Positions 52,396 through 53,720 of a DNA stretch of 64,000 bases are shown here, in pieces (position 1 is the first letter of the stretch; every line of letters starts with the position of its first letter). Where the stretch lies: positions 3,162,001-3,226,000 of the forward strand of contig NW_027590117.1 of the NCBI RefSeq assembly GCF_964213995.1, given 5' to 3'. The stretch comes from Mustelus asterias (Eukaryota). Position numbers and translations under genes: made by a program. A model generated the notes under the pieces. The model was not told the origin of the DNA. It did no database searches and saw nothing but the letters and a program-made list of their open reading frames with translations.

Positions 52396-52573
52396 GAGAT
52401 TCACAGTTCCTGAAGGAATCCCACACTCCCGCACAGTTCTTCTGTGGAGAAGGGTCCCTCACACCGACAGCCAGGCGACATTTCCCGTTGGATCTTTTTT
52501 TTTAAGTGTTTAAATCACCATCTTTAATTTACTTAGGACAAAACAGCTTTAACTATACCCTCCATGTTCAGTG

Positions 52574-52882
52574 TCAATTTGCTGATTCAGTGACTTTATT
52601 TGGTCTGCGCCCTTGAAACAATTTTCTGTTTCTCTGAACTTGAAGCTTTGCCCCTTCAAGGAGGCGTGGTTCCTTCTGCAGTGCATTCTGAAGCCCTTCT
52701 TCTGTATTGAAGCCAACCCAACAGAATCCTCTACGAAATCCAGTCTCTTTTTCGAATGGAAGAAGACATTTCTTTACTAATCCAAACTGTCCAAAATATT
52801 CTTTGATTTCTTTGCCGGCCAGGGTCCAGGGCACCCGCGACACGAAGATCTCGAAGCTCTTTCTGGAAGGAGCCGCCGCCAT
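52574..52882 (-). CDS. SLIRP: SLIRP (SRA stem-loop-interacting RNA-binding protein, mitochondrial RRM protein), intronless retrocopy, 102 aa
   Basis: 'IFVSRVPWT...KEYFGQFG.VKKCLLPFEKETGFRRGFCWVGF..EEGLQNALQ' matches the SLIRP RRM; ATTAAA signal, A9 tail (52495..52503) and 15-bp TSD (52483..52497 / 52900..52914). Confidence 0.9.
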   Translation of the reverse strand: MAAAPSRKSFEIFVSRVPWTLAGKEIKEYFGQFGLVKKCLLPFEKETGFRRGFCWVGFNTEEGLQNALQKEPRLLEGAKLQVQRNRKLFQGRRPNKVTESAN

Positions 52883-53136
52883 CTTGTAATGGCCGCCGGT
52901 CCCGGTGGATCTTTACACACTGAGAAACTGGCGCTGGAGATTCTTTGTAAAATGTATTTCCTGATTGTGGTAAGGAGGCTTGTGATTGGCGGAAACTTCT
53001 CAATCTGATTGGTCTGTTTTCATATCCACTCAAATGAACCCCTGATAAGTGACTGTAATAACTTTCAAAATGTCGAATCACAATCATTGCTTTCCCAATT
53101 CCTCATTAGCATAGTTCTGTGGGACTGTCTATTTAC

Positions 53137-53259
53137 GGTAAGAAGTTTAATAACACCAGGTTAAAGTCCAACAGGTTTATTTGGTAGCAAAAGCCACACA
53201 AGCTTTCGAAGCTCTAAGCCCCTTCTTCAGGTGAGTGGGAATTCTGTTCACAAACAGAG
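53137..53259 (-). mobile_element. Solo PLE pLTR fragment with intact minimal hammerhead, inside the H2B promoter
   Basis: 'aacaccaggttaaagtccaacaggtttatttggtagc'; minus strand CAC-CTGAAGA-AGGGGC-TTAGA-GCTTC-GAAA-GC-TT-GTG. Confidence 0.85.
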
Positions 53260-53333
53260 TTTAGAAAGACAAAACAAAGTTTATTTAATCAGCGCTCGGA
53301 AGGGGTTTGCTTTATTTCTGTGTGAAATTGAAC

Positions 53334-53720
53334 ATGGCTGATGAGAAGAAACCAACATCGAAACCAGCTCCCAAGAAGGGGGCGAAGAAAGTGATTAAGA
53401 AACCGGGAGCAAAGGGCGGCAAGAAGCGACGAAAGTCGAGGAAGGAGAGTTACTCCATCTACATCTACAAAGTGATGAAGCAGGTTCACCCCGACACCGG
53501 CATCTCTTCCAAGGCCATGAGCATCATGAACTCGTTCGTGAACGATATTTTCGAGCGCATCGCGGGTGAGGCTTCCCGCCTGGCCCATTACAACAAGCGC
53601 AGCACCATCAGCTCCCGGGAGATCCAGACCGCCGTGCGCCTGCTGCTGCCCGGGGAACTGGCCAAGCACGCCGTGTCGGAAGGTACAAAGGCGGTGACCA
53701 AGTACACCAGCTCCAAGTAA
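53334..53720 (+). CDS. H2B: Histone H2B (copy 2), 128 aa
   Basis: [16 protein letters not shown]...[13 protein letters not shown] at 53334. Confidence 0.98.

What the first reader, a model, noticed from the sequence alone, without database searches (positions are those of the whole stretch)
52483..53334. Intact SLIRP retrogene inserted head-to-head with histone H2B, sharing its promoter region
Seen: an intronless 102-aa SLIRP ORF without stops or frameshifts. It has a 17-nt 5' UTR with AAGATGGCGGC (YY1-type motif over the ATG), an ATTAAA signal ~17 nt before an A9 tail, and a 15-bp TSD (TCCCG[T/G]TGGATCTTT). These are the hallmarks of target-primed reverse transcription of a full-length mRNA. 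Its ATG is ~450 bp from the H2B ATG (~330 bp without the pLTR insertion), and CCAAT boxes at ~52985 and ~53008 face it. Known: SLIRP partners LRPPRC to stabilise mitochondrial mRNAs and is normally intron-containing; H2B promoters are often bidirectional. Inference: a mitochondrial RNA-binding retrogene may have acquired histone-locus (S-phase) regulation while keeping a polyadenylated 3' end. Two positions I recall as conserved His (FHRG, H.LEG) are Arg here, so drift towards a pseudogene is also possible.
Basis: partly seen in the sequence, partly recalled or inferred. Interest (0 to 1): 0.75.

Follow-up and report, generated by a model that had tools for sequence, protein, structure and literature searches.

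The report
Young SLIRP retrocopy riding histone duplications
An intron-free copy of the mitochondrial RNA-binding gene SLIRP sits just upstream of a shark histone H2B gene and was duplicated along with it, but this copy has changed two residues in the patches that human SLIRP needs to bind its partner, so it is most likely a young, decaying passenger rather than a working histone-regulated gene.

Summary
The retrocopy is real. A four-exon parent lies on contig C18. The copy lacks all three introns and has an A-tail and a 15-bp target-site duplication. 23 of 30 fetched paralogous H2B promoters show the empty site. One insertion occurs at five assembly places (at least three loci), duplicated with the histone unit.

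Function is not supported. The copies carry 4 missense and 1 silent change, as neutral drift predicts, and an open frame is expected 73-81% of the time. This copy has H50R and H73R. Both His are invariant in 120 of 120 homologues and match human H59/H82, in the two LRPPRC-binding patches (PMC5001613). Its H2B promoter lost a CCAAT box and has a 152-bp insertion in the TATA box. 0 of 30 H2A loci have a divergent H2B, so bidirectionality is not shown. Expression could not be tested.

One oddity: all four missense changes hit residues at least 97.5% conserved (post hoc P about 0.001-0.002). The scan noted another copy of this insertion earlier (e1-9944896). Verdict: young processed pseudogene, new member of a known kind.

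The parts
52483..52497 (.). Target-site duplication, 3' side of the retrocopy (one mismatch to the other copy, found only in this copy and C85:4.08M)
   Evidence: single copy at empty sites
52495..52503 (-). A-tail (A9, three A shared with the TSD), not templated by the parent
52504..52573 (-). 3' UTR, identical to parent exon 4, with ATTAAA at 52523-52528
52574..52882 (-). Intronless SLIRP ORF, 102 aa; differs from the parent by D44E (52751), H50R (52734), H73R (52665); no silent change
52883..52899 (-). 17-nt 5' UTR from parent exon 1 (one change shared by all five copies); YY1-like motif over the ATG (label recalled) inherited from the parent
52900..52914 (.). Target-site duplication, 5' side
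52985..53012 (-). Two distal CCAAT boxes (ATTGG on +); the first is present in 30 of 30 and the second in 23 of 30 paralogous promoters, with or without the retrocopy
53074..53078 (+). H2B-facing CCAAT box changed to CGAAT in the three C85 copies only (intact in the other 27 of 30)
53095..53112 (+). Proximal CCAAT box and octamer-like ATTAGCAT (H2B-box label recalled)
53136..53287 (.). 152-bp insertion that duplicates TATTTA inside the TATA-like box; octamer to full TATTTAATC spacing 25 to 177 bp; core resembles the termini of a Penelope-like element in the window; only in the three C85 copies
53334..53720 (+). Histone H2B ORF, 128 aa, intact
53752..53797 (+). Histone 3' stem-loop (Rfam RF00032, 39.4 bits)

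Best explanation
This is an intronless SLIRP copy with an A-tail and target-site duplication, likely pasted once by a LINE-type reverse transcriptase 300 bp upstream of one H2B gene, then duplicated with that histone unit, and now most likely drifting as a non-functional passenger. Shown: the parent and its three introns, the empty site, one shared pair of junctions in five assembly places, and the changes in each copy. Inferred: the enzyme (cut site 5'-CTTT/AC resembles the L1 consensus TTTT/AA, recalled); the order of events (insertion, duplication, then H50R/H73R, loss of a CCAAT box and the 152-bp insertion in the C85 lineage, E11V in the C141/C223 lineage); and that any protein from this copy would bind LRPPRC poorly. 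Low-level divergent transcription is possible and would not change this reading.
For: Parent with GT-AG introns of 7261, 1608 and 653 bp on C18. Empty site in 23 of 30 fetched promoters. Five distinct CDS substitutions across copies: 4 missense, 1 silent, against 1.2-1.6 silent expected under neutrality; P(no stop or start loss in 5 changes) 0.73-0.81. The retrocopy body has diverged between this copy and C141/C223 as fast as downstream DNA (1.5% against 1.6-1.7%). H50 and H73 are invariant in 120 of 120 homologues and align to human H59 and H82; human H59A-R60A and E80A-N81A-H82A lose LRPPRC binding (PMC5001613 passages). Promoter damage in this lineage. All 3 older SLIRP retrocopy loci found carry stops. 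Most retrocopies outside mammals, birds and turtles are species-specific (70-98%) and 10-50% keep coding potential (PMC13320880 passages).
Against: Five substitutions have almost no power to separate neutrality from weak constraint. All 4 missense changes hit sites at least 97.5% conserved (20 of 102 positions), post hoc P 0.001-0.002, while two old dead copies do so in 5 of 39 changes; plain drift does not predict this. The C141/C223 copies keep both His and intact promoter boxes, their one change gives the residue human SLIRP has at that position, and NCBI lists that exact protein as SLIRP-like (XP_078060357.1). The human binding mutants were Ala double or triple mutants, not single His-to-Arg changes. 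No ATG lies between the distal CCAAT boxes and the SLIRP ATG, so a divergent transcript could be translated.
Confidence: 0.72

Rival explanations
1. Expressed dosage retrogene: the outward-facing CCAAT boxes and the inherited YY1-like motif drive divergent transcription, giving extra, possibly cell-cycle-linked SLIRP. This would apply mainly to the C141/C223 copies; this window's copy would be a decaying offshoot.
For: Head-to-head retrocopies within 2 kb of a gene are a documented route to expression (11 human and 12 mouse cases, PMC4772013 passages). Distal CCAAT boxes are retained. C141/C223 protein differs from the parent by E11V only; a C141/C223-type contig was seen in a separate sample (run X6 record 16).
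Against: No copy-specific RNA evidence. 0 of 30 H2A loci have a divergent H2B and the outward arm shows no convincing likeness to H2A promoters. The distal boxes sit in retrocopy-free promoters too. Body divergence equals flank divergence.
Confidence: 0.15
2. Selected uncoupling: the copy was expressed, and selection favoured changes that detach its protein from LRPPRC, either to relieve harmful overdose or to free an RNA-binding RRM for another role.
For: Both shared C85 changes hit the invariant His of the two separate LRPPRC-binding patches; post hoc P for the two His 0.005-0.007 and for all four missense 0.001-0.002; old dead copies show no such bias. The frame, N-terminus and 3' UTR are untouched.
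Against: The statistic was chosen after seeing the data, on four changes, within a very large scan. The conservation set is mostly teleost; E11V matches human and D44E is conservative and seen in 1 of 120 homologues. Promoter damage in the same lineage argues for decay. SLIRP alone binds RNA weakly and SLIRP and LRPPRC levels depend on each other (PMC5001613 passages).
Confidence: 0.08
3. Part of the apparent amplification is assembly redundancy: this copy and C85:4.08M, and C141 and C223, may be two haplotypes of one locus each, leaving three loci. This changes the count, not the nature of the element.
For: This window matches C85:4.03-4.09M at 98.4-99.8% over about 61 kb with the same histone gene order; C141 and C223 match at 97.8-99.5% over most of 50 kb; each pair has identical retrocopy bodies.
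Against: C85:1.53M shares only about 19 kb and has different surroundings; the C85 and C141/C223 lineages differ by about 1.6% in downstream DNA and by several indels, so at least some duplication is real.
Confidence: 0.4

Closest known systems
LINE-generated processed pseudogenes / young retrocopies (survey in PMC13320880, passages)
   Same: Intron loss, A-tail after a poly(A) signal, TSD, different contig from the parent, no detectable selection.
   Different: Landed in a multicopy histone unit, so it gained copies without further retroposition and has many paralogous empty sites.
Head-to-head retrocopies using a neighbour's bidirectional promoter, e.g. HTR7P1-HEBP1 (PMC4772013, passages)
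   Same: Divergent orientation within 2 kb of a protein-coding gene.
   Different: Those were defined by CAGE and co-expression; here no expression is shown, the neighbour is a stem-loop histone gene, and its promoter is damaged in this copy.
Segmentally duplicated LCORL retrocopies of equids (PMC10249811, abstract and outline)
   Same: One retroposition amplified by segmental duplication.
   Different: LCORL has 17-35 copies, is shared by all equids and gives most transcripts; here 3-5 copies, no cross-species or expression support.
Vertebrate SLIRP (LRPPRC partner; PMC5001613, PMC11637978, passages)
   Same: 99 of 102 residues identical to the parent; single RRM (PF00076).
   Different: His at human positions 59 and 82 replaced by Arg; Asp at 53 by Glu.

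Membership tests
Processed retrocopy (TPRT) | Lacks the parent's introns | tested here: met
   All 3 parental GT-AG introns absent, exons joined exactly
Processed retrocopy (TPRT) | Untemplated A-tail after a poly(A) signal | tested here: met
   ATTAAA 19 nt before the tail; the parent continues with other sequence
Processed retrocopy (TPRT) | Target-site duplication with a single-copy empty site | tested here: met
   15 bp; single copy with the same left flank in 23 of 30 fetched promoters
Processed retrocopy (TPRT) | Made by L1 specifically | not testable with these tools
   Cut site resembles the L1 consensus (recalled); no active LINE was identified
Functional retrogene | Intact reading frame | tested here: met
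   5 of 5 copies, but expected by chance at 0.73-0.81 for point changes
Functional retrogene | Purifying selection (dN/dS below 1) | tested here: not met
   4 missense: 1 silent over about 237: 66 sites; very low power
Functional retrogene | Copy-specific transcription | tested here: inconclusive
   4 of 22 listed runs laid, contigs only; the two RNA-like runs are of other organisms and show parent-type ends
Functional retrogene | Orthologous intact copy in related species | tested here: inconclusive
   No relative genomes held; no shark SLIRP-like duplicate besides XP_078060357.1 among 11 cluster members
Working SLIRP | LRPPRC-contact residues (human H59-R60, E80-N81-H82) kept | tested here: not met
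   H50R and H73R in the three C85 copies; kept in C141/C223
Bidirectional-promoter piggyback retrocopy | Head-to-head within 2 kb | tested here: met
   452 bp ATG to ATG
Bidirectional-promoter piggyback retrocopy | Promoter is of the divergent H2A/H2B type | tested here: not met
   0 of 30 H2A loci with a divergent H2B within about 1.25 kb (28 had the H2A motif; one had only about 0.3 kb upstream); 0 of 30 promoter loci with H2A within 1.5 kb; no alignment clearly above shuffles
Bidirectional-promoter piggyback retrocopy | Divergent initiation and co-expression with H2B | not testable with these tools
   Needs CAGE or stranded reads

The most novel reading that the evidence does not exclude
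A SLIRP retrocopy captured the outward arm of a histone H2B promoter, was amplified with the histone cluster, and in one lineage was selected to swap the two His that dock it on LRPPRC for Arg, giving a cell-cycle-linked, polyadenylated, LRPPRC-independent SLIRP variant.
Probability: 0.05. Interest if true: 0.7.

Novelty: new member of a known kind. Interest (0 to 1): 0.25.

Why it matters
As a passenger it is a minor but clean example of a retrocopy gaining copies through histone-cluster birth and death, with many empty sites that let the order of events be read. It also marks gene conversion among units. If the uncoupling reading held, it would be a natural separation-of-function allele of SLIRP and a case of a poly(A) gene under histone-promoter control, both directly testable with copy-specific alleles.

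Tried and rejected
Expression test: 4 of 22 listed runs were laid, all as contigs. X3 and X4 (organisms B, C) hold spliced SLIRP with parent-type alleles and parent-type 5' and 3' ends; they are other organisms and may lack the insertion, so this is no evidence either way. X1 and X6 (organism A) cover both flanks more deeply than SLIRP and look like DNA. The window-type alleles appeared in 0 of 4 runs, but contigs drop variants, so absence is not shown. X1's exon 2-3 join has only 30 letters on one side, under the tool's bridging rule, and is not counted. 'Orphaned H2A arm' (lead from e1-9944896): no divergent H2A/H2B pair in 30 H2A loci, local alignments to two H2A upstream regions at shuffle level, and only a 30-nt, 83% match (E 0.005) in the wrong orientation for a shared arm; not supported. 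Single clade of the five units on promoter+H2B DNA: the best tree needs 2 changes because one empty unit (L027) nests among them; one clade is not rejected (p-AU 0.078); the identical junctions, not the tree, show one origin. Hammerhead in the 152-bp insertion: core-like motifs seen by eye (recalled), but no Rfam match and no such fold (z -0.16); dropped. A-to-I editing or RT error as source of the two A-to-G changes: rejected because C141/C223 share the junctions but have His. No complex prediction was run: it would not resolve point changes. Literature: 'SLIRP'+'retrocopy' gave 0 papers; 'histone gene cluster'+'shark'+'H2B' gave 6 listings, none on shark promoter layout by title or abstract start; the YY1 search found no source for the motif label; 10.1101/2020.04.16.044412 passages said nothing on these His; PMC1794435 passages only list CCAAT, Oct-1 and TATA among human histone promoter motifs. 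Supplements were not read.

Full report
Observation. The window holds a 102-aa ORF at 52574-52882 (-) with one RRM (PF00076). Its best solved relative is human SLIRP (E 7.5e-28) and its best database relatives are shark SLIRPs (91% to P0001). It is flanked by a 15-bp duplication (52483-52497, 52900-52914, one mismatch), an A9 tail, ATTAAA 19 nt before the tail and a 17-nt 5' UTR. H2B starts 452 bp away on the other strand and ends in a histone stem-loop.

Parent and origin. A protein search of the own genome gave 16 matches: five full-length intronless copies, four exons of one gene on C18, older decayed pieces at three loci (C6, C18, C17; all with stops), and three weak matches to other RRM proteins. 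The C18 gene has GT-AG introns of 7261, 1608 and 653 bp, and its exons join to give the retrocopy exactly. The YY1-like motif (label recalled; one search found no source) is present in the parent's exon 1. The H2B promoter was found at 40 places (a lower bound), of which 30 were fetched. Five hold the retrocopy, 23 show the empty site with one copy of the TSD and the same left flank, and 2 have a different left flank. This shows one insertion into one member of a promoter family. That a LINE of the L1 type did it is inferred from the TSD, tail and cut site (consensus recalled).

Amplification. All five copies share both junctions and one 5' UTR change. The window matches C85:4.03-4.09M over about 61 kb at 98.4-99.8%, C85:1.5M over about 19 kb, and C141 and C223 over about 38 kb at 95.5-98%. 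The two closest pairs could be haplotypes, so the count is three to five loci. On promoter+H2B DNA the five cluster (1 of 500 shuffles as low), but one empty unit nests among them; one clade is not rejected (p-AU 0.078). Variants that cut across the lineages suggest conversion between units (inference). A contig of run X6, a separate sample, spans two exon joins, carries the C141/C223 allele and runs about 24 letters into the flank, which supports that lineage being real.

Selection. Against the parent, this copy and C85:4.08M have D44E, H50R, H73R; C85:1.53M has a silent L40 change, H50R, H73R; C141 and C223 have E11V. That is 4 missense and 1 silent change, where neutrality predicts 1.2-1.6 silent of 5. 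An unbroken frame after five point changes has probability 0.73-0.81. Between lineages the body differs by 1.5-1.75% and downstream DNA by 1.6-1.85%. So intactness reflects youth. The test has little power and cannot exclude weak constraint. I did not date the insertion in years.

What the changes hit. Among 120 homologues (the 120 listed of 132 found, mostly teleosts) H50 and H73 are invariant, D44 is kept in 117 of 120 and E11 in 117 of 119. All four are kept in the 10 other shark-cluster proteins. The ungapped alignment maps H50 and H73 to human H59 and H82. In PMC5001613 (passages) the mutants H59A-R60A and E80A-N81A-H82A were the two SLIRP mutants that lost LRPPRC binding. The same paper argues that LRPPRC binding is the main role of the RRM and that the two proteins depend on each other; the cryo-EM paper PMC11637978 (passages) also places SLIRP at the mRNA. 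That a His-to-Arg pair weakens binding is inferred, not shown. Against my reading: four random missense changes would be this conserved with P 0.001-0.002, and two old dead copies hit such sites in only 5 of 39 changes. The statistic is post hoc on four events, E11V gives the human residue and D44E is mild, so I treat it as a lead for selected uncoupling, not as proof.

Promoter. The family has two outward ATTGG boxes, two H2B-facing CCAAT boxes, an octamer-like ATTAGCAT and a TATA-like TATTTAAT 25 bp later (element names from general knowledge, listed for human histone promoters in PMC1794435 passages). In the three C85 copies, one H2B-facing CCAAT reads CGAAT and a 152-bp insertion duplicates TATTTA and moves the full box to 177 bp from the octamer; 0 of the other 27 carry the insertion. 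The outward boxes occur in retrocopy-free promoters, so they were not gained for SLIRP. In this genome H2A and H2B were not found as divergent pairs (0 of 30 H2A loci; tandem in the window), so the mammal-type bidirectional premise is not supported. Divergent firing is still possible; no ATG intervenes before the SLIRP start.

Expression. Not settled. The two RNA-like runs laid are of other organisms and show the parent; the two of organism A look like DNA. NCBI lists the C141/C223 protein as SLIRP-like (XP_078060357.1); the window's and C85:1.53M's proteins are not in the collection. An annotation is not expression evidence, because parent reads are 99% alike.

Comparison and verdict. It meets every tested mark of a processed retrocopy and fails or leaves open those of a functional retrogene. 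Head-to-head piggybacking (PMC4772013 passages) and segmental amplification of retrocopies (PMC10249811 abstract) are both known. No paper held both 'SLIRP' and 'retrocopy'. Best reading: young passenger pseudogene (0.72). Interest 0.25, a little above a plain pseudogene for the amplification and the His-specific changes.

Noticed in passing
L017:1367-1507 (-) and L017:1704 (+), G000:C18: The parent SLIRP is itself head-to-head with ALKBH1: exon 1 matches human ALKBH1 (E 1.4e-05), ATGs 197 bp apart.
   Followed up: partly
L006 (C6), L007 (C18), L009/L010 (C17): Three older SLIRP retrocopy loci, 83-88% identical, all with stops; the C17 one is split by an insertion. SLIRP was retroposed at least four times in this lineage.
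   Followed up: partly
window 53136-53287: Penelope-terminus-like insertion in the H2B TATA-like box; similar pieces at about 10105, 13025-13121, 28076-28391, 37560, 47101, 47702 and in intron 1 of the parent SLIRP.
   Followed up: partly
window 8980-16862 and 38841-41561; L074-L103: H2A and H2B are not arranged as divergent pairs in this shark (0 of 30 H2A loci); both H2A promoters in the window carry outward ATTGG boxes with no partner gene.
   Followed up: partly
window 54660-54750 and 55040-55117: A cluster of CCAAT boxes with no histone gene after it, homologous to DNA downstream of H2A at 38482-37846, followed by a tRNA-Leu-like remnant seen by eye and not called by ARAGORN.
   Followed up: no
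L027, L044, L045, L047: Paralogous H2B units that look broken: 61-aa frames in L027 and L044, motif not found in L045 and L047; fits birth-and-death turnover.
   Followed up: no
window 51825-52399: 36-bp tandem array just beyond the retrocopy's 3' end, variable in length between copies.
   Followed up: no
window 18625-22566 (-): A 1313-aa ORF that looks like a Gypsy-type gag-pol by eye, also inside the block shared with C85:4.03-4.09M; domains not tested.
   Followed up: no
L026, L040, L044 and L024/L025/L037: TSD and promoter variants are shared across lineages in conflicting patterns, which suggests gene conversion among histone units.
   Followed up: partly
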